Shown: positions 962-62,159 of the stretch, piece by piece
Numbering within the stretch: the stretch's first letter is position 1
How the letters are laid out: each line of letters begins with the position of its first letter
Virus record (IMG/VR): IMGVR_UViG_3300013383_000018
Length of the DNA stretch: 64,000 bases
Direction: 5' to 3' (one strand)
Origin: a virus
Lineage: Duplodnaviria; Heunggongvirae; Uroviricota; Caudoviricetes
Program-made: the position numbers and the translations under genes
The notes under the pieces: model-generated
What the model saw: only the letters and a program-made list of their open reading frames with translations
Told to the model about the DNA's origin: nothing
The model's database searches: none

Positions 962-978
962 ATGGGGAATTGGTGGAA

Positions 979-2568
979 ATGGAAGACACAACAGATTTAA
1001 GTCCTGTTGGCGGATGCCGTATCGGTTCAAGTCCGATATTCCCCACCAAGATAAAAATGAATAGAGGTGTTTCTGTGTTCAAGACAAGTATTGCATCGAC
1101 ACCGTTTACGTCGGAAGCAGCCAATAGTTATTTCCAGAACATTACCGGAGATTACTACGGTGGTGATTGTTCATTCCTTTCAACGCTTCGTGCACTGGTC
1201 GCACCTCGAATCAAAGAGGGCGAAAGTGTTTATCTGACTTTCGGTTCGTCAAATTACAATAGTAACGCTATCAATAGCGTTTCGGCGGAACGTGCGGTTG
1301 GTGCTATTTGTAGCAGATATCGAATGGATGACAGCGGCGTTCTTATGGTTCACAGCTTTAATGCTGACCAGAGCAGTAATCTGACCTGTATGCAGATTAT
1401 TGAGAAGAACTTCACGTCAGTGTACCCTGAATATCATCGGCTTGATAAAGTCAAAGCATTTTACCGTAAGTCATTCAACGTTGACTGTTACATCAACCCA
1501 GACAAGAAATCGGTAATCGTCTTCGTTGATAACCTCGATATCAAGAAGATGCATTACCTGCAGGTGTCTATCCTTGCATTTATGCCGTGGTATCTGAATC
1601 AGGATGACGGTTTGACAGAGGACGAACTTGCACTGATGCAATCTCTGCGTGAGACGAATTCTGCAAACTATGAGAAGTATATCTCAAAACTCGGCGAAGG
1701 ATACGATTTCAGAACAGCACGGATTCGTCAGTTGCTGGGTGATTTTGAAACCAGATACGAACGCATGGAATGCGATTCCGTCCGCAATGAAATTGTGTCG
1801 ATTGATGATGAAATCCAGCGGCTCAATGATGCCATCGGCGCGTATCTATCACGGCGCAATGACAAGTGCATCAAGCTGATGGGGCTTGAGCAGAGAATTG
1901 CCGAAGGCGGCGGAGACTCCGAAATCATGGAGTATTTCCTTTGTAACAACCGCCTTGTCCTTTCTCGGGTGAGCAATACAGATATGTATTTCTCGGTCAA
2001 AGATTATCTCGAATACTTTGATAGAGAGATGGCTGAACGGTCAATCAACAACAGGAATAGCTACATTTATCGACCGGACGGTGGTGCTGGTCACAATGCA
2101 GCAGCGTCAGAGAAGATGCAGAAGCTGATGCGAGAGATTTTTGTGAGCGAAAATCCGCGCCTGAGAATCCGTTTCTGCGCAGCGTATAGATTCGACCTGA
2201 ATGGTAGCGTTTCCCCGCAGACCGGCGACTTTTCTGATTACACATTCGACGGTTATATGCCCAATACACACATCGACCGGTTCCATTGTATGGGCAATTA
2301 CCTCAGAACTATCAATGAGCTGTTGAGACAGAGAAATTATATTGGAGCCCTTGAGCAGTGTATTGCATCCTGTAAGAGTCTGAACTTCGGTGACAGTGCA
2401 GTTATGGGCGAGTTTATGAAAACGATGTGGTCGAACGGTTCGGTCAGTCGTTGTATCGAATTGCCAGATGGTCGTGTTGTAAAGCCGAATGAGGCAATCA
2501 GATGGCTTGAAGAACAGGAGGCACAGAATGGGCAGGCGGAGGAGGCGCAAAATGAGCAGACCAATTAA
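979..2568 (+). CDS. large hypothetical protein (about 530 aa) with a coiled-coil segment; start uncertain (979 or 1057)
   Basis: Long ORF. ATG 946 lies inside the terminator hairpin. ATG 979 is preceded by GGTGG. No recognised motif. Confidence 0.5.
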   Translation: MEDTTDLSPVGGCRIGSSPIFPTKIKMNRGVSVFKTSIASTPFTSEAANSYFQNITGDYYGGDCSFLSTLRALVAPRIKEGESVYLTFGSSNYNSNAINSVSAERAVGAICSRYRMDDSGVLMVHSFNADQSSNLTCMQIIEKNFTSVYPEYHRLDKVKAFYRKSFNVDCYINPDKKSVIVFVDNLDIKKMHYLQVSILAFMPWYLNQDDGLTEDELALMQSLRETNSANYEKYISKLGEGYDFRTARIRQLLGDFETRYERMECDSVRNEIVSIDDEIQRLNDAIGAYLSRRNDKCIKLMGLEQRIAEGGGDSEIMEYFLCNNRLVLSRVSNTDMYFSVKDYLEYFDREMAERSINNRNSYIYRPDGGAGHNAAASEKMQKLMREIFVSENPRLRIRFCAAYRFDLNGSVSPQTGDFSDYTFDGYMPNTHIDRFHCMGNYLRTINELLRQRNYIGALEQCIASCKSLNFGDSAVMGEFMKTMWSNGSVSRCIELPDGRVVKPNEAIRWLEEQEAQNGQAEEAQNEQTN

Positions 2569-7115: not shown

Positions 7116-7814
7116 ATGAGAAAGGAACTAAGCATGATTTACGTCACAGGAGACACACACGCGAACATTGATATAGCCAAGCTTAATACAACAAGGTTCC
7201 CACAGCAAAAGGAATTGACGAAGAATGATTTCGTAATCATCTGCGGAGATTTTGGACTCTGCTGGGACGGTTCGCATCGAGAGATGTGGTGGCAAGACTG
7301 GCTGACGGCGAAAAACTTCACGACACTTTGGATTGATGGCAACCACGAGAACTTTGATATGCTCTACCAGTTCCCGTTAATTGACAAATTCGGCGGGAAG
7401 GTGCGCGAAATCGCTCCTGACATCTATCATCTGGACAGAGGGCAAGTGCTCACGATTGATGGAAAGAAAATCTTCTGCATGGGCGGTGCTCGTTCGGTTG
7501 ATAAAGAGTATCGTGTGGAACACATCTCATGGTGGAAAGAGGAAATGCCGTCCAGAGAAGAAATGGAACGCGCGATTGCAACGCTCGAACAAAATAATTG
7601 GTGCGTTGACTATGTGATTACACATTGTGCACCAAGGAGAATTCAGACTCTGCTCGCAAGCTGGTACGAGAATGACCCGATGGTCAGCTTTTTGGATAGG
7701 GTTTGCTCTGACCTCACATTCAAGCGATGGTTCTTCGGACATTATCATGTGGACAAGCAGGTCAATGAGCAATTTATTGCTCTGTATAATAAAGTAATCC
7801 CGATGGAGTGGTAA
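7116..7814 (+). CDS. calcineurin-like metallophosphoesterase
   Basis: Motifs VTGDTHA, ICGDFG, IDGNHE, GHYH. Start may be 7134 (MIYVTGD). Confidence 0.8.
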   Translation: MRKELSMIYVTGDTHANIDIAKLNTTRFPQQKELTKNDFVIICGDFGLCWDGSHREMWWQDWLTAKNFTTLWIDGNHENFDMLYQFPLIDKFGGKVREIAPDIYHLDRGQVLTIDGKKIFCMGGARSVDKEYRVEHISWWKEEMPSREEMERAIATLEQNNWCVDYVITHCAPRRIQTLLASWYENDPMVSFLDRVCSDLTFKRWFFGHYHVDKQVNEQFIALYNKVIPMEW

Positions 7815-7894
7815 GCCTAACGGTAAGGCAGCGGTTTGCTAAACCGTGAGTAATCCGAAAGGATGTGCAGGTTCAAGTCCTGTCCACTCCGCCA
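7805..7894 (+). tRNA. tRNA-Ser (anticodon GCU), type II with long variable arm, encoded CCA
   Basis: Acceptor GGAGTGG/CCACTCC, anticodon loop TTGCTAA, long variable arm, T-loop TTCAAGT. The 5' end overlaps the stop codon of the preceding CDS. Confidence 0.8.
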
Positions 7895-7970
7895 AGGGGT
7901 GTGGTGTAACGGCTAACACAGCGGTCTCCAAAACCGTCAGATGGTGGTTCGAATCCATTCACCCCTGCCA
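7895..7970 (+). tRNA. tRNA-Trp (anticodon CCA), encoded CCA
   Basis: Acceptor AGGGGTG/CACCCCT, anticodon loop CTCCAAA, T-loop TTCGAAT. Confidence 0.8.
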
Positions 7971-8156
7971 GTTGTTGGGTAGCTCCCAACTGATGTGAGC
8001 GATTATCGGCTTACCTCACAAAGAATGAAAATGCTCGCTGAAAACTGCGCTTGTCTTGATGCGTCAAGACCGGTTTGACCTGACGGAATAGGGGCTACGA
8101 CTTTTCGGAGCGTAGTTGCCGGTAGCGTGTGACAATCTAAGCGAGAAGCCGACCAT

Positions 8157-8233
8157 GCGGCGTTGGTGTTCAACGGTTAGCACTCCGGTCTTCCAAACCG
8201 GTGGTGCCAGTTCGAGTCTGGTACGCCGCTCCA
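8157..8233 (+). tRNA. tRNA-Gly (anticodon UCC), encoded CCA
   Basis: Acceptor GCGGCGT/ACGCCGC, anticodon loop CTTCCAA, T-loop TTCGAGT. Confidence 0.8.
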
Positions 8234-25224: not shown

Positions 25225-26004
25225 ATGGCGCAGTACAAAATTGGAATTACAGAGGCGGGAGACGCAGGCGTTGACCTGTCTTGGATAGAAAAATTGGACA
25301 GCGTCGATGCCGCTATTCTGGTTACGAAGTGTGTATCTCCAGACTTCTTCGATGCTGTTCTTGAGCATAGGGAGAAACTCGTTGTCCACGCTACAATCAC
25401 AGGATATGGGCACTCTGTTCTGGAGCCTAATGTGCCTACCCCATACGAGGAGTTTGCCGCAATTATGGAACTTGTCAAAGCCGGGTTCCCGATGGAGAAA
25501 GTCGTTATTCGTATTGACCCCATTATCCCAACAGAAAAAGGACTTTCAGTTGCGTACCGCACAATAATTTCCTTTATGGAAATGGGGTTTCAACGCTACA
25601 GAGTGAGCGTCATTGATATGTATCCACACGCAAGAAACCGGTTCAAAGAAGCTGGATTGCCACTACCTTATGGTGATAGTGGTTTTGCTCCGTCAAAAGC
25701 ACAGCTTTTGAAAGTAGACAATATGCTGCGGCAGGCAAAGCAGTTTTGGGAAGGGTTGAACAACGGTAAAATTCTCCGAATCGAGTCTTGTGCAGAGCCC
25801 GGTCTTGCGGAGCCTATTGCCTGCGGCTGCATTTCCGACTATGACCTCGGCTTACTTGGACTTTCCAAAGATACAGAAGCAAATGGTGTTGGCTATCAAC
25901 GCAATGGCTGTATGTGTTATGCGGGGAAAACAGAGTTATTAAAACACAAAGCAAGGTGCCCACACGGTTGCTTGTATTGTTATTGGAAGGATATGAAAGG
26001 TTAA
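25225..26004 (+). CDS. hypothetical protein with C-terminal Cys/His metal cluster
   Basis: CGC...CMCYAGK...CPHGCLYCY cluster. Confidence 0.55.
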   Translation: MAQYKIGITEAGDAGVDLSWIEKLDSVDAAILVTKCVSPDFFDAVLEHREKLVVHATITGYGHSVLEPNVPTPYEEFAAIMELVKAGFPMEKVVIRIDPIIPTEKGLSVAYRTIISFMEMGFQRYRVSVIDMYPHARNRFKEAGLPLPYGDSGFAPSKAQLLKVDNMLRQAKQFWEGLNNGKILRIESCAEPGLAEPIACGCISDYDLGLLGLSKDTEANGVGYQRNGCMCYAGKTELLKHKARCPHGCLYCYWKDMKG

Positions 26005-26699: not shown

Positions 26700-26742
26700 C
26701 AATGGGAATATATGTGGTGGTGGAAGACAACCGATTGGAGGT

Positions 26743-27315: not shown

Positions 27316-27337
27316 GCCCGCTACGCGGGCGGTTTTT
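27316..27337 (+). terminator. rho-independent terminator
   Basis: GCCCGC-TAC-GCGGGC followed by GGTTTTT. Confidence 0.65.
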
Positions 27338-27466: not shown

Positions 27467-27679
27467 TTGTTATGTGATAAATGCTTACACAAAAAAGTGT
27501 GCAGGTTTGAAGTCCCAGATGAGGGGCAATGTGATGACTTTATTGACGAAGCCATCGTAGATAAATTCAACAGCATTGGATGCACATCATTTCGAATTAG
27601 CGCGGATTCCATAAAAGGAATACTCGACAGACAATTAGCCGAACCCCCGGCTACTCTTGGGCGAAGCAATGCAGGTTGA
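27467..27679 (+). CDS. small hypothetical protein
   Basis: ORF only. Confidence 0.35.
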   Translation: MLCDKCLHKKVCRFEVPDEGQCDDFIDEAIVDKFNSIGCTSFRISADSIKGILDRQLAEPPATLGRSNAG

Positions 27680-28178
27680 ACTTCACGACACATACGGCGT
27701 TCTTCGGATAAAGACAAGCGAGTTCTTATTCGATTTGGAGGACTTGCCGCTCATAAAGGGACGCGACAGTTGGTATTGCGACAAGGACGGTTACCTCGTC
27801 AGCAGTTACTTCTATAATGGTATTCGACGCTTTGTCCGATTCCACCGACTTGTGATGCACGCGAAACCCGGTCAATGTGTTGACCACATTAACAAAAACA
27901 AAGCGGATAACAGGAAGAAAAATTTGCGATGTTGCGAGCGTTCTGAGAACGACAGGAATCGCAGCCTGTATTCGTGCAATACATCCGGTGTCGCTGGCGT
28001 CTACTTCGACAAAGAACGTAAGAAGTGGGTTGCCAGCATTACTTATAACCATAAGAAGGTTTACTTGGGAAGATACGCGGTCAAGGAAGAAGCAATCTTG
28101 GCTCGGCTGACCAAGGAGGTCGAATTGTATAAAGAGTTCTCGCCGCAACGAGGGCTTTTGGAATCTCTAAATCTATAG
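27669..28178 (+). mobile_element. HNH homing endonuclease with AP2 DNA-binding domain
   Basis: HNH core VDHINKNKADNRKKNLR. AP2 domain SGVAGVYFDKERKKWVASITYNHKKVYLGRY. Confidence 0.75.
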
Positions 28179-28524: not shown

Positions 28525-28824
28525 ATGAAATATATGCTGATTGAAGTAATGGAGCGAGAAATCTCCGAGCCTGAGTATTTCGATACGCACGATGCAGCGC
28601 ACGATGAGATGTGCCGACGTGTCGCTGAGGTTTACGATATCTCTCCCGACGAAGTCAAAGAGTCCTACCTCGAAGGTGAAGACCTGAATGAGAACGCTGT
28701 GGTTCTTGAGGACATTGCATGGGCTGAACGGTATGGTAAGAACTTTGACTGGAAAATCTTCGCCATTGAGCGAGACGTTCCTGCACAGGTAACAGTTCCT
28801 CCTCTGTTCAATACTCTGAGATAA
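28525..28824 (+). CDS. hypothetical acidic protein
   Basis: RBS AAGGAG. Confidence 0.5.
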   Translation: MKYMLIEVMEREISEPEYFDTHDAAHDEMCRRVAEVYDISPDEVKESYLEGEDLNENAVVLEDIAWAERYGKNFDWKIFAIERDVPAQVTVPPLFNTLR

Positions 28825-28826
28825 CG

Positions 28827-28991
28827 ATGATGCGGTGGCGGAATAGGTAGACGCGCTGCCGGTGTTAACAAACACCCATAGAAACGGCAGTCAGGGCGGC
28901 GCAAGACATACTGCGCGGCGGTTGCAAACGTCAATCGTGTTGAAAGTGCACGACTAATGGTTGTGGGGTGCAAATCCCCACCCGCATCACG
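28827..28991 (+). ncRNA. 165-nt tRNA-Leu-like element with a large internal insertion (intron-like or attachment-site tRNA mimic)
   Basis: 7-bp acceptor GATGCGG/CCGCATC. The 5' part GGTGGCGGAATAGGTAGACGCGCTGCC is near-identical to the bacterial tRNA-Leu D-arm and anticodon-stem start. T-arm TGGGG-TGCAAAT-CCCCA. About 90 extra nt lie between the CTGCC/GGCAG stem and the T-arm. Confidence 0.45.
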
Positions 28992-29039
28992 ACAGGTCAC
29001 CCTAAGTTACAGATACATATTCGAAAGGGGTGACACAAG

Positions 29040-30122
29040 TTGGAAACAAATAAACAAAATGAGATACGCAATGCTTATGAGCATAGCGCACAAGTCCAGT
29101 GTATTCCCGCTTCGATTAAAAAGACTACTGAGCACAGCGAAGAAGACCCATTGGTGGTCGCGCCGTATTGCAGAGTCAGTACGGACAACAAAGACCAGCT
29201 CGCAAGCTACGAGCTGCAGTGCCAGTATTACAAAGAATATGTGTCGAAGCATCCGGGCTGGCGGCTTTATGACATCTACGCCGATGAAGGGATTTCCGGG
29301 ACTTCCGTAAAGAAACGCACGGACTTCTTACGGATGATTGATGATTGTAAAGCAGGCAAAATCAACATGATTATCGTGAAGAACATTGCAAGGTTCGCAC
29401 GAAATGTTGTTGACTGCGTTGCCACTGTGCGTATGCTCAAGGCACTGGACAAGCCGGTCGCTGTTTATTTTGAGGATATTGCAATCAATACCTTGACACA
29501 GACCGGCGAGCTTCTGATGGTCGTTATGGCTGCTATCGCACAAGGCGAGTCAGAAGCAAAGTCTGAGAGCGTGAAATGGGGATTCCAGAAAAGATTTGAG
29601 AAGGGGCTCCCAAAGCTCGCAGACCTCTATGGGTACACCAGAGATAAGAGGTCGCTGGAGATTTACGAGCCTGAAGCGAATGTTGTGCGGCTGATTTATC
29701 AAATGTTCTACGATGACAGAACGATTCCTGAAATCTGTTACATCTTAAACCAGCAAGGTATCCCGTCCCCACGAGGTGGTCAGTGGACATACTCTACGGT
29801 AAAGGCAATCTTGACAAATGAGAAATATTCCGGTGACGTTTTGATGCAGAAGACCGTTACCGTTGATATCTTTTCGCATCGCTCTATTCGGAACGACGGA
29901 CGTGCTAACCAGTTTTTTATCCAAGGTTATCACAAAGCAATTATTCCGAGAGAACTTTGGCTTGAAGTGCAACAGATTCTAAAGGGTGAAAATGTTGTTC
30001 CGGTTCCATCAGTTGATGAGGTGGCAGATTTGTCTGCATCTGATGTCCCTCGGATATTAGATGGCTTTTTTGTAATTAAACCTCGAAAGGATGGAAACAA
30101 TGAGTATCTTAGACAACTTTGA
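29040..30122 (+). CDS. serine recombinase (resolvase catalytic domain plus recombinase domain; no zinc ribbon); TTG start
   Basis: Catalytic YCRVSTDNKDQ. Recombinase-domain pattern GGQWTYSTVKAILTNEKYSG. Confidence 0.8.
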   Translation: METNKQNEIRNAYEHSAQVQCIPASIKKTTEHSEEDPLVVAPYCRVSTDNKDQLASYELQCQYYKEYVSKHPGWRLYDIYADEGISGTSVKKRTDFLRMIDDCKAGKINMIIVKNIARFARNVVDCVATVRMLKALDKPVAVYFEDIAINTLTQTGELLMVVMAAIAQGESEAKSESVKWGFQKRFEKGLPKLADLYGYTRDKRSLEIYEPEANVVRLIYQMFYDDRTIPEICYILNQQGIPSPRGGQWTYSTVKAILTNEKYSGDVLMQKTVTVDIFSHRSIRNDGRANQFFIQGYHKAIIPRELWLEVQQILKGENVVPVPSVDEVADLSASDVPRILDGFFVIKPRKDGNNEYLRQL

Positions 30123-30591
30123 TGTGGTTGGCGTCCCTCGTACATTCAGTATTGCAGAGGTTCGAATCCTAAAGAACCGCATCTCCTTTAACCTCGCAAC
30201 GGCTTCCGAGATTGGCTATCCGCCGTTTGTGCGGCTGTTTATCAGCAGAGACAAAACGCAGATTGCGTTGCAGCCTTGCGCCAAAGAAACACCGAACGCG
30301 ATGAAATTCTTTACTTCGGATTCTACGAAAGACGGAAAGCCAAAGAAAAGAATGATTCCGGTTGGAAATCGTGCGCTGACGGCACTTGTAAAAGCCGGTA
30401 TTGGTGTCGAGATGAATGTTCCGTTAAAGGCGCCGGGTGTTCGCTTTGCAGATGAAGGCGTCATCATCTTCGACCTCAAACAAGCAACTGACATGAACCA
30501 ACCAAATGCTTGCACAGAAACTGGTCTGTGCCTGATTCCCACTCCGGCATATCCATTTGTTGAAATGCCGTCTGGATACTTCGCATCATAA
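30091..30591 (+). CDS. hypothetical protein
   Basis: ORF only. Confidence 0.45.
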   Translation: METMSILDNFDVVGVPRTFSIAEVRILKNRISFNLATASEIGYPPFVRLFISRDKTQIALQPCAKETPNAMKFFTSDSTKDGKPKKRMIPVGNRALTALVKAGIGVEMNVPLKAPGVRFADEGVIIFDLKQATDMNQPNACTETGLCLIPTPAYPFVEMPSGYFAS

Positions 30592-30635: not shown

Positions 30636-31460
30636 TTGAGTAAGAAATACGATTCGCTCGGCGACAGAATGAAAGGTTACGAGAACATCGCTCGCAACTA
30701 TTTGACCCGTCGGATTCCAACCATTATCAGGGTGGACGGCAAGGCGTTTCATACATTTACAAGAGGTATGGAAAAGCCGTTTGACCGCATCTTGATGACA
30801 ACGATGCAAAATACAATGAAGTACCTGTGTGAAAATATTCAGGGCTGTGTCTTTGGATATACGCAGTCAGATGAAATCACATTGGTGCTTACAGACTATG
30901 CGACAATCACAACGGATGCATGGTTCGGATACAACATCCAAAAGATGTGCAGCGTTTCCGCTTCAATGGCTACGCTCGCTTTTTCAAATGCCTATGCTGC
31001 TGAGCTATGGAAGCACTTCCCCGAAGCGATGCGCAGCAGCGACAATGGCACAAATAAGTACATTGAAACTCTGGTCGCAAAGATGGGTACAGCCATGTTT
31101 GATGCCAGAGTTTTTTCTATTCCCAAAGACGAAGTTTGCAACTGCCTGATTTGGCGCCAGCAAGATGCGACCCGCAACAGTATTGAGGCAGTTGGGCAAG
31201 CGAACTTTAGCCAGAAGGAACTCCACGGTAAAAGCTGCAACGTAATTCAAGATATGCTTTGGCGGAACTGCGGAATCAACTGGAATGACTTCCCTGTTGA
31301 CTGTAAGCGTGGTTCGGCTTGTTACAAAACAAGAGTTAAAGAGACCGTCCCTGTTCTCAATAATACTGAAACGGTTGAGGTTTTCAGAAACCGTTGGGTT
31401 ATTGACCGAGAGCCTCCCATTTTCTCACAAGAAAGAGAGTATGTTGAAAAATGGATATGA
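30636..31460 (+). CDS. Thg1-like protein (tRNA-His guanylyltransferase / tRNA 5'-end repair polymerase); TTG start
   Basis: RVDGKAFHTF matches RLDGRNFHRF. GYTQSDEITLVL matches AYGQSDEYSFVF. FDARVFSIP...WRQQDATRNSI matches the Thg1 C-terminal motif. Confidence 0.75.
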   Translation: MSKKYDSLGDRMKGYENIARNYLTRRIPTIIRVDGKAFHTFTRGMEKPFDRILMTTMQNTMKYLCENIQGCVFGYTQSDEITLVLTDYATITTDAWFGYNIQKMCSVSASMATLAFSNAYAAELWKHFPEAMRSSDNGTNKYIETLVAKMGTAMFDARVFSIPKDEVCNCLIWRQQDATRNSIEAVGQANFSQKELHGKSCNVIQDMLWRNCGINWNDFPVDCKRGSACYKTRVKETVPVLNNTETVEVFRNRWVIDREPPIFSQEREYVEKWI

Positions 31461-31765
31461 CACCGGCTGAAGTTGCCACTTGTATTTGCGATATCTATGA
31501 GAAACTTGGACGTTTAGAGTGCCGTCTCGAAAATACACAAAGAGATTTAGGCACCGCAATAGAACGAAACAGGCAACACACAGAAGGACTCCTGAACCAG
31601 CAGACAGATGTCGAAAACAAAATCGATATAGCACTGACGACGGCTGTCCATGAATTGATTGAGTATCTACGATACCAAGACATCCAAGCTCTGGATGAGG
31701 AAGAGTTTTTGTTAAGGGTTCGTGAACTTATTCGTGTTGAGCAAGACGAACACCTTCCGTTCTAA
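31451..31765 (+). CDS. hypothetical coiled-coil protein
   Basis: ORF only. Confidence 0.45.
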   Translation: MDMTPAEVATCICDIYEKLGRLECRLENTQRDLGTAIERNRQHTEGLLNQQTDVENKIDIALTTAVHELIEYLRYQDIQALDEEEFLLRVRELIRVEQDEHLPF

Positions 31766-31776
31766 GGAGGAAAAAT

Positions 31777-32079
31777 ATGAGTTGCTATAAAGACGGTGGC
31801 TGTGGTATTTATGAGATGTATTCCTGCTATGAATGTCCAGCAAGCAAGCCGGAGTACCTTAAAAGAAAGTCGCACGAGCCGCAAAGATTACAGGCAATCG
31901 GAAGCCTGCACGACGTAGCCAAACAGATTCTGGACGAAGAAGTAGTCACTCTTCTTCGTCAATACGGAACAACGCTTGCGCCGGGGCGAATGGGAGATGA
32001 AAGTCGTGTTCCGAAGTGGCTGCTTGTTCTTGCGGCAGACAGAATCGAGGAGTTAAAAAATGCAGGAACAAAGCAATAA
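31777..32079 (+). CDS. hypothetical protein
   Basis: RBS AAGGAGG. Confidence 0.5.
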   Translation: MSCYKDGGCGIYEMYSCYECPASKPEYLKRKSHEPQRLQAIGSLHDVAKQILDEEVVTLLRQYGTTLAPGRMGDESRVPKWLLVLAADRIEELKNAGTKQ

Positions 32080-32650
32080 ACAGTTCTACATTTCAGATTG
32101 GCATTATGGTCATGCAAACGTGATTGCCTTTGATAACCGCCCATTCAAATCGCTTCTGGAGATGGACGAGGCGTTGGTTGACCGTTGGAACGCCGTGGTT
32201 TCTCCGGGTGACATCGTGTATGTTCTTGGAGATATGTTCTGGTGTAAGGCACAAGACGCTATCCCCATTTTACGTTCCTTAAAAGGACAGAAGTTCCTGA
32301 TTAAAGGTAACCATGACCGATGCAATGACAACAAGTTCTTACGGGAATTTGTTAAGGTCACAGAGTATCTTGAAGTGAAGGACAACGGACGAACGGTGAT
32401 TCTTTGCCACTATCCAATCCCATGCTTTAAGAATCACTTTTATGGTTCCTTCCACTTGTATGGGCACGTCCACAATTCTTTTGAATGGAACATGATGGAG
32501 CACGACAAGTATCTGATGGAGGAACTGTACACGACACCTTGCCAGATGTTTAATGTCGGAGCAATGATGCCGTGGATGGACTACACGCCTCGGACGCTTG
32601 ATGAAATCATTGCGGCAAATTCGCATAACGAGGCTGTTAGAAATAAATGA
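32060..32650 (+). CDS. calcineurin-like metallophosphoesterase (candidate RNA end-healing phosphatase)
   Basis: DWHYGH, GDMF, GNHD motifs. Confidence 0.75.
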   Translation: MQEQSNKQFYISDWHYGHANVIAFDNRPFKSLLEMDEALVDRWNAVVSPGDIVYVLGDMFWCKAQDAIPILRSLKGQKFLIKGNHDRCNDNKFLREFVKVTEYLEVKDNGRTVILCHYPIPCFKNHFYGSFHLYGHVHNSFEWNMMEHDKYLMEELYTTPCQMFNVGAMMPWMDYTPRTLDEIIAANSHNEAVRNK

Positions 32651-32747
32651 TGGCTTGAATCACTTGTGCCACAAGGCTTTGAAAGGCGCTTGATGAGTGG
32701 TATTAGTGCATCATATAAAACAAAAGGAGTGGTCACTTGTGATTTAC

Positions 32748-33911
32748 CTTGACAATGCCGCCACCACACAAATGGATGAACGGGTTCTTGAAGCAATGAT
32801 GCCGTACCTGACAACGGAATATGGTAATGCAGGAACCCTCTATAAGTTTGGACGAGCTGCGAATGAGGCTGTGCAGAAAGCCAGAGCGCAAGTGGCAGCT
32901 TTAATCAACGCAGAGCCAGAGCAAATCATTTTTACATCTGGTGGTAGTGAAGCAAACAATTTAGTCTTTCAGGGTTTGAAGGACTATCTGAAGAGTATCG
33001 GTAAGACACACATTTTGGTATCGGCGGTTGAGCACGATTCCGTCCTACGAGCCGCAGAATCGCTTATAAAAGACGGGTTTCATGTAGAGTATATTCCGGT
33101 ATCCAATGAGTGCAGGGTCTCTCCTGCTGTCATTGAGAACGCATTACGGGCAGATACGGGGCTTGTGTCTGTGATGTTTGCGAATAACGAAACAGGCGCA
33201 ATCAACCCAATCGAAGACATTGGAACGATTTGCATGAAGCGTGGGATTCTGTTCCACACAGATTGCGTGCAAGCTGCAGGGTGCTATCCTATTGATGTGG
33301 TGAAAATCGGTTGCGATTTTCTTTCGGTGTCATCACATAAGATTCATGGTTGTAAAGGCGTTGGAGCTTTGTACGCAAAGGATAAGTCCAAGCTTGCACC
33401 CATTGTTTATGGTGGTTCGGAGCAAGAGTTCGGACTGAGAGGTGGAACAGAAAATGTTGCTGGCATCGTAGGATTCGGAAAGGCTTGTGAGATTTCATCG
33501 AAGAGCTTGCACGAAGATACGGTGTGGGTTTCTACATTGAAACAGAGATTTTTCATGGCGCTGAATGAAGCGCTCAAAGATACGGGCGATGAAGGCTGCG
33601 TCCATGTAAATGGTATGTCGATTCTTACACCCGGAAAGACGATTAACTTGAGAATGGATGGCGTTGACGGCGAGACGCTCTTGCTCATGTTGGATGGTAA
33701 GGGAGTTTGTGTTTCTGCTGGGTCTGCGTGTAGAAGTCACGAAGCAGAACCAAGCCATGTTTTATCTGCGATGGGGCTGTCCAAAGATGAAGCTCGGGCA
33801 TCCATCAGAATTTCGTTCTCAAAGAAAAACACGGCTGATGAAGCCGTAAGAGCCGCACAGATTTTAGCTGGGTGTATTTCAACGCTCAGGGTGAGAGAAG
33901 AAAAGGAGTAA
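32748..33911 (+). CDS. iscS: cysteine desulfurase (IscS/NifS family); GTG start
   Basis: IYLDNAATT N-terminus. PLP-Lys motif SSHKIHGCKGVGALY. AAGGAG is 10 nt before GTG 32748. Confidence 0.8.
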   Translation, partial: LDNAATTQMDERVLEAMMPYLTTEYGNAGTLYKFGRAANEAVQKARAQVAALINAEPEQIIFTSGGSEANNLVFQGLKDYLKSIGKTHILVSAVEHDSVLRAAESLIKDGFHVEYIPVSNECRVSPAVIENALRADTGLVSVMFANNETGAINPIEDIGTICMKRGILFHTDCVQAAGCYPIDVVKIGCDFLSVSSHKIHGCKGVGALYAKDKSKLAPIVYGGSEQEFGLRGGTENVAGIVGFGKACEISSKSLHEDTVWVSTLKQRFFMALNEALKDTGDEGCVHVNGMSILTPGKTINLRMDGVDGETLLLMLDGKGVCVSAGSACRSHEAEPSHVLSAMGLSKDEARASIRISFSKKNTADEAVRAAQILAGCISTLRVREEKE

Positions 33912-33915
33912 GGTT

Positions 33916-34938
33916 ATGACGATTGAGCAAATCAAAGAGATGGTCAACGGTTCTGCTTATGATTTCCTTAGAACAAACGAGCACCTCGGAAGCAAGATTA
34001 TTTTTCTTACACTTGGTGGCAGTTATTCCTATGGAACAAATGTTGAAACATCCGATGTCGATGTGAGAGGATGTGCGTTGAACAGCGAATCTGATTTGCT
34101 TGGTCTGACAAGCTTCGAGCAGGTCGTTAATACACAAACGGATACGACAATCTACGCTTTCAATAAGCTGGTGAGCTTGCTTCTAAATTGTAACCCAAAT
34201 ACGATTGAAATGCTTGGGTGTAAGCCGGAGCACTATTTCTATATCTCAGACATTGGCAGAGAAATGATTGCCAACAGGAAGATGTTCCTGTCTAAGCGAG
34301 CAGTCCATTCTTTTGGAGGTTATGCGAATCAGCAGCTTCGGCGTTTGGAAAATGCTCTTGCGCGAGATAGGTTATCACAGGCAAGAAGAGAGGAGCATAT
34401 CCTCAACTCTATGAAAGGCGCCGTTAAATCATTTGAGAGTCGATACACGATTTTTGAAAACGGCAGCATTGTTCTCTATACAGATGAGAGCCCGCGAGAG
34501 GATTTAGACCGTGAGATTTTTGCAGATATCCAGCTTAAAAAGTATCCGGTCAGAGAGTTCAATAGTGTAATCAACGACCTGACGAATGTTATCGGGACGT
34601 ATGAGAAGCTCAATCACAGGAACCACAAGAAGGACGACGAGCATTTGAACAAACACGCGATGCATCTTATTCGTTTGTATCTTCTCTGCTTGGATATTCT
34701 GGAGAAAGAGGATATTGTCACATATCGTGGTGACGACCTGCCCCTTCTGATGAGTATCCGCAAAGGCGATTACCAACTGGAAGATGGGACGTACAGACCA
34801 GAGTTCTTTGAAATGGTTTCTGACTTTGAGAAACGACTCAATTACGCAAAGCAAAACACGAGCCTCCCAGAGACCCCGGATATGAAGAAAGTTGAGGAAT
34901 TCGTCGTGAGTGTAAACAGGAGGGCGATTGATGCATAA
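33916..34938 (+). CDS. Pol-beta-superfamily nucleotidyltransferase (class unresolved)
   Basis: GGSYSYGTNVETSDVDV (GS-x9-DxD). Confidence 0.6.
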   Translation: MTIEQIKEMVNGSAYDFLRTNEHLGSKIIFLTLGGSYSYGTNVETSDVDVRGCALNSESDLLGLTSFEQVVNTQTDTTIYAFNKLVSLLLNCNPNTIEMLGCKPEHYFYISDIGREMIANRKMFLSKRAVHSFGGYANQQLRRLENALARDRLSQARREEHILNSMKGAVKSFESRYTIFENGSIVLYTDESPREDLDREIFADIQLKKYPVREFNSVINDLTNVIGTYEKLNHRNHKKDDEHLNKHAMHLIRLYLLCLDILEKEDIVTYRGDDLPLLMSIRKGDYQLEDGTYRPEFFEMVSDFEKRLNYAKQNTSLPETPDMKKVEEFVVSVNRRAIDA

Positions 34939-36274
34939 GATTTCTATCCCTAAAGGTGCGCGAGCAGTTCTGCTGAATCTCCGATATGAAAACCATGAAG
35001 CATATGTGGTCGGCGGATGCGTCAGAGACAGTCTGCTTGGAAAAGAACCGAAAGACTGGGATATCTGCACCTCTGCTACACCGGACGAGGTTAAAGAACT
35101 AATGCATCGTCGTGGTACAAAGACAATCGACACTGGGCTGCAGCATGGAACAGTAACAGTTGACATGGATACTGCTGGAAAGTATGAAGTCACAACGTTT
35201 CGAATTGACGGAAGTTACACAGACGGGAGACATCCTGACTATGTGGAATTTACCGAGAGTATTTATAAGGACTTATCTCGCAGAGATTTCACCATCAACG
35301 CTATGGCGTACAACAGCGCTGGATTGATTGACCCGTTCCACGGGAGAGACGATTTACAAGCAGGAGTTATTCGTTGTGTCGGTAATCCTGATGAACGCTT
35401 TGAAGAAGATGCGCTTCGCATTATGCGAGCTCTGAGATTCGCAGCGACTTATGGTTTCTCTATCGAAGAACGGACAGCCGCTGCTATCCACAAGGACGCT
35501 TGGATGTTAAAACGCATTGCTGCGGAGCGAATCAATGGCGAGCTTTGTAAAATGTTGCTCGGTGACGGTATCTTAAATGTACTGTTGGATTTCGCTGATG
35601 TTATTGCAACGATTATTCCAGAAATGGAGCCTTGCATTGGTTTTGAACAGAACAACAAGTACCACCAATACACTGTGTACGAGCATATTGCACACGCTGT
35701 TGCAAACTATAGGGGCACTGATGTGTCCGTCAAGGTTGCTCTGCTGCTCCATGATATCGGGAAACCCCAATGCTATACCGAAGATGAAAATGGCGGGCAC
35801 TTCCACGGGCATGGAGTTCCAAGCCGCGATATTGCAGAACAAGTTTTGGATAGACTGCGGTTCGATAATAAGACAAAGCAAGAAGTTCTTGAGCTTGTGC
35901 TCTATCACGACACAATGATTGAACCAACGCCCCGCACAGTCCGCAAATGGCTGCACAAACTCGGTGAACACCGGTTTTCGCAGTTTTTGGATGTACGGAT
36001 GGCTGATATTCTTGCCCATGCAGAGGGCACTCAGGAGTCCAGAATCGAAAGATGTATCGCGCTCGGCTCTATCATGTCTGAGGTTTTGGAGGCTGAGCAG
36101 TGCTTTGCATTAAAAGACCTGCAAATCAATGGCAGAAATATTATGAGTCTCGGCGTTGAACAAGGAAAACGTGTTGGCGAAATCCTTAACAGCCTTTTAG
36201 ATGAAGTGATTTCAGGGGCTTTAGAAAACGAACACAGTGCTTTGATGCAGAGGGCGGTGGAGCTTCTTGGATGA
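34928..36274 (+). CDS. cca: CCA-adding tRNA nucleotidyltransferase with HD domain
   Basis: GGCVRDSLLGKEPKDWDI head-domain motif. RRDFTINAMAY. HD motif LLHDIGKP. Confidence 0.85.
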   Translation: MMHKISIPKGARAVLLNLRYENHEAYVVGGCVRDSLLGKEPKDWDICTSATPDEVKELMHRRGTKTIDTGLQHGTVTVDMDTAGKYEVTTFRIDGSYTDGRHPDYVEFTESIYKDLSRRDFTINAMAYNSAGLIDPFHGRDDLQAGVIRCVGNPDERFEEDALRIMRALRFAATYGFSIEERTAAAIHKDAWMLKRIAAERINGELCKMLLGDGILNVLLDFADVIATIIPEMEPCIGFEQNNKYHQYTVYEHIAHAVANYRGTDVSVKVALLLHDIGKPQCYTEDENGGHFHGHGVPSRDIAEQVLDRLRFDNKTKQEVLELVLYHDTMIEPTPRTVRKWLHKLGEHRFSQFLDVRMADILAHAEGTQESRIERCIALGSIMSEVLEAEQCFALKDLQINGRNIMSLGVEQGKRVGEILNSLLDEVISGALENEHSALMQRAVELLG

Positions 36275-61543: not shown

Positions 61544-61550
61544 TTTCTTG

Positions 61551-61676
61551 CAATGTTTCTTTGCCGCACATTGTGAAGCGTTTTTGCATAAGCGATGTTT
61601 CTTTGCCGCACACCGCGAAGCGTCCTTGCATAAACAATGTTTCTTTGCCGCACATTGTGAAGCGTTTTTGACGAAA
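61551..61676 (-). ncRNA. toxI: type III antitoxin RNA: three tandem 42-nt direct repeats (ToxI-like)
   Basis: Repeat units start at 61551, 61593 and 61635 and share TGTTTCTTTGCCGCACAttGtGAAGCGTttTTGcATAA. Located between the promoter and the terminator upstream of toxN. Confidence 0.75.
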
Positions 61677-61725: not shown

Positions 61726-62159
61726 CAGGAGATTCAACCCAAATTTTGCAATAGAGCGTGTAGCACCACAATGATATCCAAGCATGGGACAAGTTCCATA
61801 ACAGAAAGAAGTGAGCCGTCTGCTGCAACAGAACGGCTCACGGTTGTTTGAGGTTTTGCCTCATCATGTGACGTTTGTATGTTTGTGGCAACCGTCTGGG
61901 TTTCCACCGCAGGGGCGCTTGTTGGTAGCAGGCGCTCCTTGTGTTATTATTATAGACTCTATCATCGGCATTTGTCAAATGAATTTTCTGTTAGCGTTTT
62001 CTTTCGGATTTCTCCTACGTCAGCCTGTGGAAATCGCATAACCCTCGGTCAAGCTCCACAAGTGTACGGATGCTGACCCCATCACTTGCTTCAACGCTGC
62101 GGCGGACAGTCCTGCTGCCGTTTTCAAGAATATTTACACCCACAAAATATTCTCAGATG

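What the first reader, a model, noticed from the sequence alone, without database searches (positions are those of the whole stretch)
28827..30122. 165-nt tRNA-Leu-like element with internal insertion immediately upstream of a zinc-ribbon-less serine recombinase
**Seen in sequence:**
- The acceptor stem is a perfect 7 bp.
- The 5' portion almost matches the bacterial tRNA-Leu D-arm (GGTGGCGGAATaGGTAGACGCGCT).
- A CTGCC/GGCAG stem encloses a 25-nt loop that itself forms a GGTGT-TAACAA-ACACC hairpin.
- About 70 extra nt lie before a T-arm-like TGGGG-TGCAAAT-CCCCA.
- A 360-aa serine recombinase gene (TTG start) begins 49 nt downstream.

**Inference:**
- The element could be an intron- or insertion-containing tRNA.
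- It could be a tRNA-derived attachment-site copy for the serine recombinase.
- It could be a novel tRNA-like ncRNA.
- The serine recombinase lacks the usual C-terminal zinc ribbon and coiled-coil of large serine integrases.
- Its role may therefore be inversion or resolution rather than integration.
Basis: seen in the sequence. Interest (0 to 1): 0.6.

Follow-up and report, generated by a model that had tools for sequence, protein, structure and literature searches.

The report
Anticodon-less tRNA-Leu mimic of phages
The "odd tRNA-Leu" is real, and it belongs to a large, apparently undescribed family of phage RNAs that keep the top half of tRNA-Leu but replace the anticodon region with variable inserts; the neighbouring recombinase is unrelated to it.

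Summary
It is not a tRNA by ARAGORN or Rfam, not an intron-containing tRNA, and not an att site.

It belongs to a family of at least 198 distinct sequences (52-300 nt). These occur in phages and probable prophages, almost all of Bacillota. Cultured examples include Bacillus phi3T, Enterococcus phiFL2A and EFDG1-like phages, Listeria B054 and Leuconostoc Ln-9, and the element is unannotated in all of them.

The shared frame is:
- a 7-bp acceptor stem;
- U8-G9;
- a tRNA-Leu D-arm;
- U48;
- a 6-bp T-stem with loop UGCAAAU (G at position 55);
- the acceptor 3' strand, a variable discriminator and no encoded CCA.

The anticodon and variable arms are replaced by unrelated inserts of about 0-250 nt. 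Covariation is decisive: 95% of cells pair against 71% when shuffled, and 0 of 500 shuffles reach the observed score.

Members lie on the same strand as nearby tRNAs. They often sit between a late-activator gene and the terminase genes. In this window the element precedes a tRNA repair and maturation gene cluster.

The most likely reading is a processed, non-decoding tRNA mimic. Its function is inferred, not shown. The adjacency to the recombinase is incidental.

The parts
28829..28835 (+). Acceptor stem, 5' strand (GATGCGG).
   Evidence: Pairs perfectly with 28982-28988. All 7 pairs covary across the family.
28836..28854 (+). U8-G9 and a tRNA-Leu-type D-arm (GCG/CGC stem, loop GAATAGGTAGA with G18 G19).
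   Evidence: Near-invariant in members found through the T-arm alone. The identical 19-mer occurs in genuine tRNA-Leu(UAA) genes.
28856..28890 (+). First hairpin of the variable middle: CTGCC/GGCAG stem with a 25-nt loop that holds GGTGT-TAACAA-ACACC. It occupies the place of the anticodon arm but is not one.
   Evidence: Close relatives change C-G to U-G in the stem and vary the loops.
28891..28961 (+). Rest of the variable middle (three small hairpins). It is lineage-specific and is replaced by an unrelated 62-nt insert in sister phages L016, L020 and L028.
28962..28981 (+). U48-equivalent (T28962) followed by the T-arm: 6-bp stem GTGGGG/CCCCAC and T-loop TGCAAAT (G at position 55).
   Evidence: The T-loop is TGCAAAT in 47 of the 55 one-spacer members found through the D-arm alone. 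The T-stem covaries, including the sixth G:C pair. The U before the stem is present in 93 of 94 members.
28982..28989 (+). Acceptor stem 3' strand (CCGCATC) and discriminator A28989. No CCA is encoded (next bases are CGA).
   Evidence: In the family the helix stops at 7 bp, and the discriminator is A 49%, U 32%, C 10%, G 9%.
29040..30122 (+). Serine recombinase, 360 aa, TTG start. It has the catalytic Resolvase domain and the Recombinase domain, with no zinc ribbon or coiled-coil. It is a neighbour, not part of the RNA.
   Evidence: Pfam, PHROGs, homologues of 350-360 aa down to 45% identity, and alignment to residues 62-309 only of the 545-aa SPbeta integrase YokA.
30091..30591 (+). A 166-aa ORF that overlaps the recombinase stop. 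A partner ORF of 162-166 aa follows the recombinase in three of the four distant homologue loci; in the fourth it is second downstream, after a 211-aa ORF. No family match.
26712..26727 (+). Remnant (TATGTGGTGGTGGAA) of a second tRNA-like element. Sister phages have an intact 116-nt copy here.
30636..36274 (+). Downstream tRNA repair and maturation gene cluster (context). It holds a Thg1-like protein, two small ORFs, a metallophosphoesterase, a class-V aminotransferase, an RlaP nucleotidyltransferase, and a CCA-adding enzyme with an HD domain.

Best explanation
The element is a gene for a non-decoding tRNA mimic. It belongs to a large phage-borne family derived from tRNA-Leu.

**Shown**
- The RNA keeps everything that builds the upper half and elbow of tRNA-Leu: a 7-bp acceptor stem, U8, A14, A15 with U48, G18 G19, the D-stem, and a T-loop with U54, A58 and C56.
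- It has lost the anticodon and variable arms. Unrelated, lineage-specific inserts of 0 to about 250 nt take their place.
- Three family-specific changes set it apart from tRNAs: G55 in the T-loop, a sixth T-stem base pair (7+6 = 13 stacked pairs instead of 12), and a free discriminator with no encoded CCA.
- It lies on the coding strand inside operons and tRNA clusters.

**Inferred**
- It is co-transcribed with its neighbours.
- It is cut out like a tRNA by host RNase P and RNase Z.
- It is given CCA by a CCA-adding enzyme; this phage encodes one 6 kb downstream.
- It accumulates as a stable L-shaped RNA that cannot read codons.
- It acts as a competitor or decoy for a factor that recognises tRNA by elbow plus acceptor end. 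That factor could be LeuRS or a host tRNA-targeting toxin or defence enzyme.
- The middle is an optional add-on.

I put about 0.9 on 'structured tRNA-like RNA family member' and about 0.35-0.4 on the decoy or competitor function.
For: **Not a tRNA**
- ARAGORN and Rfam do not call it a tRNA.
- ARAGORN calls only 2 of 198 family members.

**A real family**
- A scan with the T-arm word recovered unrelated phages that carry the same D-arm and perfect 7-bp acceptor stems of different sequence.
- A scan with the D-arm word split cleanly into two groups. One is genuine tRNA-Leu(UAA): 82-86 nt, TTCGANT loop, no spacer, A73. The other is 55 tRNA-like elements of 76-252 nt with TGCAAAT-type loops and one extra nucleotide.

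**Covariation on members chosen without any pairing criterion**
- 95.1% of cells pair, against 71.0% when shuffled and 36-43% when slid.
- 241 double-change cells, against 69.
- 0 of 500 shuffles reach the observed score.
- 46 distinct acceptor strands.

**tRNA-like boundaries and ends**
- The helix ends at 7 bp (pair 1 forms in 84%; -1:73 in 57%; -2:74 in 48%).
- The base after the discriminator is U in 50% of members.
- No CCA is encoded.

**The frame stands without the middle**
- phiFL2A has a 52-nt version and L156 a 76-nt version.
- The middles fall into about 150 unrelated clusters.

**Genomic context**
- 166 of 171 nearby tRNAs are on the same strand, and 53 of 198 members have a tRNA within 500 nt.
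- In 54 of 140 cases the upstream same-strand ORF ends less than 20 nt before the element; here the gap is 4 nt.
- The window has a tRNA repair and maturation cluster downstream.

**Published precedent**
- E. coli tRNA-Leu lacking the anticodon and variable arms is still leucylated. This depends on A73 and on the D/T-loop tertiary pairs (PMC9976931, read).
Against: - No expression or processing data are available for any member.
- Closely related phages have lost most of the element (13 L001-type loci, plus L021 and L002). The window itself has lost its second copy. The RNA is therefore dispensable at least in some settings.
- G18:U55 matters for leucylation in E. coli, and only 49% of members have A73. 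Charging by LeuRS is therefore doubtful for many members.
- A 13-bp stack may shift or weaken measurement by RNase P and the CCA-adding enzyme.
- No protein gene is consistently linked with the family. The commonest neighbours are late activators and terminase genes, which do not point to a decoy role.
- Some inserts are large and internally conserved, so the middle is not always a passenger.
Confidence: 0.5

Rival explanations
1. Cis-acting processing signal ('tRNA punctuation'). The tRNA-shaped fold exists mainly so that RNase P and RNase Z cut the polycistronic transcript at this point. That would set the 5' end and stability of the downstream mRNA (late operon, or here the recombinase and tRNA-repair genes). 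The excised RNA would be a by-product.
For: - The element is packed tightly into operons. The upstream stop codon is 4 nt away here, and less than 20 nt away in 39% of members.
- A recurrent position is between a late activator gene and terS/terL, and after yonO/yonN homologues in phi3T.
- The middle is irrelevant to RNase P and RNase Z, which fits its free variation.
- No promoter-like or terminator-like site flanks the element in the window.
Against: - The near-invariance of the whole D-arm, of U48 and of G55, and the fixed extra base pair, exceed what RNase P or RNase Z need. Ordinary tRNAs, present in the same clusters, would serve equally well.
- Many members sit inside tRNA arrays, where no extra cut site is needed.
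- Large, structured, conserved inserts are unexplained.
Confidence: 0.2
2. Natural tRNA scaffold. The conserved frame only provides processing and stability. The active part is the hypervariable middle, acting as a protein-binding aptamer, sponge or trans-acting sRNA that evolves fast in an arms race.
For: - The window and L016 share flanks and acceptor stem but carry unrelated middles. L040 shares the L016-type middle on a different acceptor stem, with compensatory changes.
- Some middles carry conserved motifs and covarying hairpins.
- Most members are 100-160 nt long.
Against: - Members with almost no middle exist (52, 58, 61 and 76 nt).
- There is no excess complementarity of the middles to the 300-nt flanks (median z about 0).
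- No motif is shared between middle types.
Confidence: 0.15
3. Decaying tRNA-Leu pseudogene with junk insertions and no function.
For: - Deletion variants are common among near-identical phages.
- tRNA finders reject it.
Against: - Compensatory covariation in both helices across dozens of unrelated phages.
- The same non-tRNA features (G55, sixth T-stem pair) recur in at least 190 sequences.
- The element persists in 28-kb lytic phage genomes.
Confidence: 0.04
4. Recombination (att or res-like) site for the adjacent serine recombinase, derived from a tRNA gene.
For: - The element ends 50 nt upstream of the recombinase gene.
- Two independent deletions (L001-type and L021) share a right-hand end near 28983.
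Against: - The stems covary instead of matching a host tRNA.
- The family is overwhelmingly found without recombinases.
- Recombinase homologues lack the element.
- No second copy or inverted repeat of the site or its flank exists in the window.
- A similar deletion hit the second element, which has no recombinase beside it.
Confidence: 0.04
5. Functional tRNA-Leu with an intron or insertion that is spliced to a normal tRNA.
For: - The D-arm is identical to that of tRNA-Leu.
- The window copy has A73.
Against: - No anticodon loop can be found.
- No Rfam family, intron models included, matches at E <= 10 beyond two chance-level hits.
- Inserts are too small and too diverse to be self-splicing introns.
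- The G55 T-loop and 13-bp stack would remain after any splicing.
- Minimal members have nothing left to decode with.
Confidence: 0.02

Closest known systems
Bacterial and phage tRNA-Leu (class II tRNA), in particular the laboratory 'minimalist tRNA-Leu' lacking anticodon and variable arms (Larkin et al. 2002, as summarised in PMC9976931).
   Same: - The 19-nt U8-D-arm segment is identical to that of phage tRNA-Leu(UAA) genes.
- It shares the 7-bp acceptor stem, A14, A15 with U48, G18 G19, U54, A58 and C56.
- Like the minimalist constructs, it is acceptor plus D-arm plus T-arm only.
   Different: - G55 instead of U55.
- A 6-bp T-stem, giving 13 stacked pairs.
- The discriminator is not fixed as A.
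- There is no anticodon arm and no regular variable arm.
- It fails the tRNA models.
tmRNA (tRNA-like domain plus a large insert).
   Same: The architecture is shared: 5' acceptor strand, reduced or retained D region, a large non-tRNA insert, a T-arm, then the 3' acceptor strand.
   Different: - There is no tag reading frame.
- G3:U70 is not conserved.
- ARAGORN and Rfam tmRNA models do not match.
- The inserts are unrelated to one another.
Bacterial Y RNAs (YrlA) with a tRNA-like domain (PMC4201824).
   Same: - Non-decoding RNAs that mimic the D-arm, T-arm and acceptor of tRNA.
- Some are cut by RNase P and receive CCA.
- They occur in phages and beside RNA-repair genes.
   Different: - YrlA is encoded next to Ro60/Rsr, and its ends lie in the Ro-binding stem (a permuted topology).
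- Its T-loop carries pseudouridine 55.
- Here the ends are in the acceptor stem, position 55 is G, and no TROVE gene was seen among the neighbours tested.
Small tRNA-like phage RNAs known from classical work (own knowledge, not checked here): T4 species 1 and 2 RNAs in the tRNA cluster, phi80 M3 RNA, and P1/P7 C4 and P4 CI RNAs matured by RNase P.
   Same: They are phage-encoded stable RNAs, co-transcribed with or shaped like tRNAs and matured by tRNA-processing enzymes.
   Different: - There is no sequence relationship.
- C4 and CI act by antisense pairing to neighbouring mRNA, and that was tested here and not found.
Large serine recombinases (phiC31, Bxb1, SPbeta SprA/YokA), for the neighbouring gene.
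   Same: The catalytic Resolvase domain and the Recombinase domain are present.
   Different: The protein ends after the Recombinase domain. It has no zinc ribbon or coiled-coil. In three of four distant homologue loci a 162-166-aa ORF of unknown family follows directly; in the fourth it is second downstream.

Membership tests
Canonical tRNA (Rfam RF00005; ARAGORN) | Scores above threshold with tRNA covariance or heuristic models. | tested here: not met
   There is no hit at the gathering threshold, nor at E <= 10, for 28700-29150. ARAGORN finds 9 other tRNAs in the window but not this element. Only 2 of 198 family members are called. The 76-nt member scores 26 bits against a gathering score of 29.
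Canonical tRNA (Rfam RF00005; ARAGORN) | Anticodon arm with a 5-bp stem and a 7-nt loop. | tested here: not met
   The stem at that position encloses a 25-nt loop. Relatives have unrelated sequence there, or none.
Canonical tRNA (Rfam RF00005; ARAGORN) | 7-bp acceptor stem plus 5-bp T-stem, with T-loop U54-U55-C56. | tested here: not met
   The acceptor stem has 7 bp, but the T-stem has 6 bp and the loop is UGCAAAU. Both features are family-wide.
Phage tRNA-Leu-derived tRNA-like family defined here | 7-bp acceptor stem, U8-G9, and a GCGGAAUAGGUAGACGC-type D-arm. | tested here: met
   Window 28829-28854. Family consensus.
Phage tRNA-Leu-derived tRNA-like family defined here | A-U-G, then a stem, the loop UGCAAAU, the return strand and a closing C (6-bp T-stem), directly followed by the acceptor 3' strand. 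| tested here: met
   Window 28962-28988. Covariation.
tmRNA | tRNA-Ala-like ends with G3:U70, a tag-peptide frame and pseudoknots. | tested here: not met
   Pair 3:70 is U-A here. ARAGORN and Rfam tmRNA models find nothing.
tRNA interrupted by a self-splicing intron | A match to any curated intron model (group I or group II) inside the insert. | tested here: not met
   The Rfam scan of 28700-29150 at E <= 10 returned only two chance-level hits, blv_FSE and Tymo_tRNA-like. The insert is about 105 nt.
YrlA / bacterial Y RNA | Encoded beside a Ro60 (TROVE) gene, with the RNA ends in the Ro-binding stem. | tested here: not met
   The neighbouring proteins scanned with Pfam or PHROGs between 25.2 and 36.3 kb contain no TROVE domain. 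The topology is unpermuted.
Large serine integrase (the neighbouring gene) | Resolvase catalytic domain plus Recombinase domain. | tested here: met
   PF00239 at 1.1e-28 and PF07508 at 7.7e-25.
Large serine integrase (the neighbouring gene) | C-terminal zinc ribbon domain with an embedded coiled-coil. | tested here: not met
   There is no PF13408 hit. The protein aligns only to residues 62-309 of the 545-aa YokA. Homologues are 350-360 aa.
attP or res site of the adjacent recombinase | The site co-occurs with the recombinase in relatives and has a partner site. | tested here: not met
   Homologues at 51-70% identity lack the element. No partner repeat was found.
Leucine-accepting RNA (LeuRS substrate) | A73, A15:U48, G18 G19, U54:A58, G19:C56 and G18:U55 (E. 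coli rules, PMC9976931). | tested here: inconclusive
   The window copy has all of these except U55, which is G. Across the family A73 is present in only 49%. Charging cannot be tested with these tools.

The most novel reading that the evidence does not exclude
These RNAs may be natural counterparts of the laboratory 'minimalist tRNA-Leu'. On this reading, phages of Bacillota make anticodon-less tRNA-Leu mimics that engage LeuRS, or another reader of the tRNA elbow and acceptor end such as an acceptor-end-modifying toxin, without entering translation. The G55 change and the extra T-stem pair would keep them out of the ribosome, EF-Tu and TruB pathways. The hypervariable inserts would be displayed modules that evolve in an arms race. 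That would make this a new class of phage counter-defence or host-takeover RNA, present in model phages such as phi3T.
Probability: 0.15. Interest if true: 0.85.

Novelty: new variant of a known kind. Interest (0 to 1): 0.7.

Why it matters
tRNA mimicry by non-coding RNAs is already known from tmRNA, Y RNAs and plant-virus 3' ends. A family of this kind, present in hundreds of phages of Firmicutes, appears to be absent from Rfam 15, from every phage record I inspected, and from the literature I could search.

It occurs in genetically tractable and therapy-relevant phages: Bacillus phi3T, Listeria and Enterococcus phages, and dairy Leuconostoc and Lactobacillus phages. Its function can therefore be tested directly.

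It also has practical consequences:
- It explains unannotated gaps, and some spurious small ORFs, upstream of terminase genes.
- It gives annotators a new feature to call.
- It offers a natural example of a tRNA scaffold that tolerates inserts of 0 to about 250 nt.

For this window, it shows that the striking tRNA-plus-recombinase pairing is a coincidence of neighbourhood.

Tried and rejected
- **Rfam:** scans at the gathering and E-value thresholds on the window element and on six other members. No family covers the element. A weak rli62-like hit lies beside the L062 element, not on it.
- **Exact 27-mer of the window copy in viral contigs:** no match, because relatives differ by one base.
- **C4-like cis-antisense model:** best ungapped complementarity of each middle to 300 nt upstream and downstream, compared with shuffles, for 155 members. 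The median z is about 0, so the model is rejected as a general mechanism. A first attempt with RNAduplex timed out.
- **Kissing-loop dimerisation through the palindrome UGCA in the loop:** rejected. The recurring variant UGCGAAU breaks the palindrome yet fits the T-loop rule of a purine at position 57.
- **Recombination-site repeats near the recombinase:** only chance-level short repeats were found.
- **Link between recombinase homologues and the RNA:** none.
- **Literature:** six full-text searches, including the sequence words themselves, found no description. The 224-motif paper and the 10,006 viral csRNA paper do not describe it in their main text, and the supplements are not held.
- **Covariance model of the whole element:** not built, because the middle varies from 0 to about 250 nt. 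Regular-expression detectors and a frame-only alignment were used instead.
Full report
**1. The observation.**
  - GATGCGG (28829-28835) pairs perfectly with CCGCATC (28982-28988).
  - U8-G9 is followed by GCGGAATAGGTAGACGC (28838-28854), a tRNA-Leu D-arm.
  - CTGCC/GGCAG (28856-28860 and 28886-28890) encloses a 25-nt loop that holds GGTGT-TAACAA-ACACC.
  - A further 71 nt (28891-28961) follow.
  - The T-arm-like hairpin has loop TGCAAAT. Its stem is really 6 bp: GTGGGG (28963-28968) with CCCCAC (28976-28981).
  - The discriminator is A28989, and no CCA is encoded.
- The TTG-initiated 360-aa ORF starts at 29040. It has Resolvase and Recombinase domains only.
- On its own the element folds only modestly better than shuffles (z = -2.0).
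- ARAGORN finds nine other tRNAs in the window but not this element.
- Rfam finds nothing here, either at the gathering scores or at E <= 10.

**2. Close relatives show turnover.**
- Thirty-three IMG/VR phage contigs encode a 98-99% identical recombinase. The sequence upstream of it is polymorphic.
  - About 15 contigs carry the full 161-nt element, with a few substitutions that keep pairing (C-G to U-G, U-A to U-G).
  - Thirteen L001-type contigs have lost the middle and the T-arm.
  - L021 and L002 carry other deletions.
  - L016, L020 and L028 have the same flanks, acceptor stem, D-arm and T-arm, but an unrelated and shorter middle (116 nt in total).
- Sister phages also hold a second, 116-nt element 2.2 kb upstream. 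In the window only its first 15 nt survive, at 26712-26727.

**3. A large family.**
- A scan of viral contigs for the T-arm word GTGGGGTGCAAATCC returned many unrelated phages. In these, the word is preceded at 30-190 nt by TG-GCGGAATAGGTAGACGC. The whole is flanked by a perfect 7-bp helix whose sequence differs from phage to phage.
- The reciprocal scan used the D-arm word TGGCGGAATAGGTAGACGC. Its hits split into two clean classes.
  - Genuine tRNA-Leu(UAA): 82-86 nt, T-loop TTCGANT, T-stem directly abutting the acceptor stem, and A73.
  - Fifty-five tRNA-like elements of 76-252 nt. Their T-loop is TGCAAAT (47 cases) or a one-base variant. The T-stems covary, and one extra nucleotide, nearly always C, lies before the acceptor 3' strand.
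- A relaxed detector run over all loci held found 198 distinct members of 52-300 nt.

**4. Covariation.**
- Members for this test were chosen only by the D-arm 19-mer and the presence of TGCRAAT within 320 nt. No pairing criterion was applied.
- Acceptor pairs formed in 57-64 of 65 sequences, against 27-38 in partner-shuffled controls for the six variable pairs. There were 46 different acceptor strands.
- The tool count on the 62-frame alignment A1 gave these results:
  - 95.1% of cells paired, against 71.0% when shuffled and 36-43% when the partner was slid by 1-3 columns.
  - 241 double-change cells, against 69.
  - A covariation score of 0.629, against 0.163.
  - 0 of 500 shuffles reached the observed value.
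- The outermost T-stem pair is G:C in 51 sequences, A:U in 3 and C:G in 2. The T-stem therefore has 6 bp, and the coaxial acceptor/T stack has 13 bp rather than 12.
- The helix stops where a tRNA acceptor stem stops. Pair 2 forms in 94% and pair 1 in 84%, but -1:73 in only 57% and -2:74 in 48%.
- The discriminator is A 49%, U 32%, C 10% and G 9%. The base after it is U in 50% of members. CCA is never encoded.

**5. Anatomy compared with tRNA-Leu.**
- Retained and nearly invariant: G7:C66, U8, G9, the GCG/CGC D-stem, A14, A15, G18 G19, a U immediately before the T-stem (the U48 position, 93 of 94), and U54, C56 and A58 of the T-loop.
- Changed:
  - G at position 55.
  - An added G:C pair at the base of the T-stem.
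  - A free discriminator.
  - Complete loss of constraint on the anticodon and variable region.
- The middle falls into about 150 mutually unrelated sequence clusters.
- The middle can be essentially absent. phiFL2A has a 52-nt version, GTCACTG-TG-GTGGAATATAGAC-CATG-CAAGGTGCAAATCCTTG-C-CAGTGAC-A. L156 has a 76-nt version.
- Some middles are elaborate. They can contain an internal canonical T-arm-like GGGTTCGATTCCC and covarying hairpins.
- The same middle type can sit on different acceptor stems (L040 and L016), with compensatory changes.

**6. Genomic setting.**
- The elements lie on the same strand as their neighbours.
- 53 of 198 have a canonical tRNA within 500 nt, and 166 of 171 nearby tRNAs are co-oriented.
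- The commonest neighbouring proteins are phage late transcriptional activators upstream (phrog_36 and phrog_248; 31 of 198) and terminase subunits downstream.
  - phiFL2A has the order ArpU, the element, a tRNA, then terminase large subunit (TerL).
  - phi3T has it after the yonO and yonN homologues.
  - Leuconostoc Ln-9 has it between the HNH gene and the genome end.
- In 39% of cases the upstream same-strand ORF ends less than 20 nt before the element. In the window the stop codon is 4 nt away, and no promoter-like or terminator-like site flanks the element. Co-transcription is therefore the simplest reading.
- In the window the element heads a block of genes: the recombinase, a 166-aa ORF, a Thg1-like protein, two small ORFs, a metallophosphoesterase, a class-V aminotransferase, an RlaP nucleotidyltransferase, and a CCA-adding enzyme with an HD domain.

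**7. Distribution.**
- BLAST of a minimal member against 50,697 phage records finds the two frame halves in Leuconostoc, Enterococcus, Listeria, Bacillus, Lactobacillus, Weissella, Brochothrix and Paenibacillus phages.
- The feature under the match is 'none' or a small hypothetical ORF.
- A genome scan hits almost only Bacillota, plus a few Saccharibacteria and others. I did not verify that these sites are prophages.

**8. The recombinase.**
- The 350-360-aa architecture of Resolvase plus Recombinase is conserved down to about 45% identity on long contigs.
- The protein aligns only to residues 62-309 of the 545-aa SPbeta integrase YokA. The lack of a zinc ribbon and coiled-coil is therefore native, not a truncation.
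- A 162-166-aa partner ORF of unknown family follows it directly in three of the four distant homologue loci. In the fourth, a 166-aa ORF comes second, after a 211-aa ORF.
- Homologues at 51-70% identity sit in quite different neighbourhoods and have no element of this family upstream.
- No repeat of the element's flank, and no convincing inverted repeat, exists nearby.
- The adjacency is therefore specific to this phage lineage. It looks like an insertion of the two-gene cassette between the RNA gene and the tRNA-repair genes.

**9. How it most likely works.**
- Shown: a conserved, covarying, tRNA-Leu-derived upper half (elbow plus acceptor stem), without an anticodon, encoded in sense orientation inside operons and tRNA clusters.
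- Inferred:
  - It is co-transcribed with its neighbours.
  - It is released by RNase P at the 5' side and by RNase Z at the 3' side. The absence of CCA and the frequent U after the discriminator fit what I recall as the substrate preference of Bacillus RNase Z (own knowledge, not checked here).
  - It receives CCA.
  - It persists as a stable L-shaped RNA that cannot decode.
- The features that are kept are those used by factors that read tRNA by elbow and acceptor end. They coincide with the leucine identity set of E. coli: A15:U48, G18 G19, U54:A58, G19:C56 and A73. Constructs lacking the anticodon and variable arms remain LeuRS substrates (PMC9976931).
- G55 and the 13-bp stack are the kind of changes that would keep such an RNA out of normal tRNA traffic.
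- I therefore favour a non-decoding mimic that competes for, or decoys, a tRNA-binding factor. That factor could be LeuRS or a host tRNA-targeting enzyme. The tRNA-repair genes beside it in this phage fit a conflict over tRNA. This step is inference.
- Points against the decoy reading:
  - A73 is present in only half of the members.
  - U55 is lost.
  - The element is dispensable in sister phages.
  - No conserved partner gene has been found.

**10. Rivals.**
- A pure processing signal for the polycistronic or late mRNA fits the positions. It does not explain the extreme conservation of the D-arm, G55 and the extra pair, given that ordinary tRNAs lie in the same clusters.
- A scaffold for active inserts fits the cassette-like middles. 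It does not fit the 52-76-nt members or the lack of complementarity to neighbouring sequence.
- The pseudogene, att-site and intron-containing-tRNA readings are contradicted.

**11. Novelty and limits.**
- I found no Rfam family, no annotation in any phage record inspected, and no paper in six full-text searches. The library does not hold every journal, so an earlier description cannot be excluded.
- No expression data were available.
- Members were detected with patterns anchored on the D-arm or the T-loop, so divergent relatives are under-counted.
- The genome-scan loci were not checked for prophage context.

Noticed in passing
window 61550-61669 (-) and 61989-62099 (-): There are full-length Rfam matches to Fusobacteriales-1 RNA (91 bits) and drum RNA (90 bits), two orphan structured RNAs of unknown function, about 320 nt apart on the minus strand of this phage.
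   Followed up: no
window 964-1048 and 7805-9168 (+): The window holds nine canonical tRNA genes: Leu-UAA alone, and an array of Ser, Trp, Gly, Gln, Thr, Ser, Thr and Pro. The phage therefore carries a genuine tRNA-Leu(UAA) as well as the mimic.
   Followed up: partly
window 26712-26727 (+); intact copy at L003 1593-1708: This is the remnant of a second family member (TATGTGGTGGTGGAA). Sister phages have an intact 116-nt element with acceptor TATGTGG/CCACATT. Presence or absence of both elements varies among phages that are 95-98% identical.
   Followed up: yes
window 30636-36274 (+): This is a tRNA repair and maturation gene block. It contains a Thg1-like 3'-5' nucleotidyltransferase, a metallophosphoesterase, a class-V aminotransferase (cysteine desulfurase-like), an RlaP 'RNA repair pathway' nucleotidyltransferase, and a CCA-adding enzyme with an HD domain.
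   Followed up: partly
window 29040-30591 (+); L384-L390: The zinc-ribbon-less recombinase is followed directly by a 162-166-aa ORF of unknown family in three of the four distant homologue loci looked at. In L389 and L390 a 211-aa ORF intervenes. The pair sits in unrelated neighbourhoods (NADAR, Fic/Phd, a tyrosine integrase, a GmrSD/methylase island), as if it were a mobile two-gene cassette.
   Followed up: partly
L385/L386 2880-2975; L387/L388 about 2820-2930: Other long-range helices lie upstream of distant recombinase homologues. One is GCGGTGCGG...CCGCACCGC, enclosing a tRNA-Tyr/Ser-like CCCGAGAGCG segment. Another is a 12-bp stem, GTTTTCAGACTG...CAGTCTGAAAAC. They may be different structured RNAs in the same position.
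   Followed up: no
L383 2602-2754 (phi3T_57); L381 2519-2653 (Listeria B054 gp75): Small 'hypothetical protein' ORFs annotated in public records begin inside the T-arm of the tRNA-like element. They are probably mis-calls.
   Followed up: no
L383 3859-3924 (+), Bacillus phage phi3T: There is an Rfam DUF3800-VIII RNA match (44.7 bits, above the gathering score) 1.2 kb downstream of the phi3T tRNA-like element.
   Followed up: no
L062 4054-4186 (-): A weak full-length match to Listeria sRNA rli62 (29.8 bits against a gathering score of 83) lies between a tRNA-Arg and the tRNA-like element of that phage.
   Followed up: no
window 27657-28178 (+) and 25225-26004 (+): An HNH-AP2 homing-endonuclease-like ORF and a DUF1848 protein lie just upstream of the element's operon. 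A strong terminator-like hairpin at 27316-27332 precedes them.
   Followed up: no
L124 about 659-1258: Two family members lie in tandem a few nucleotides apart, so arrays of these elements exist.
   Followed up: no
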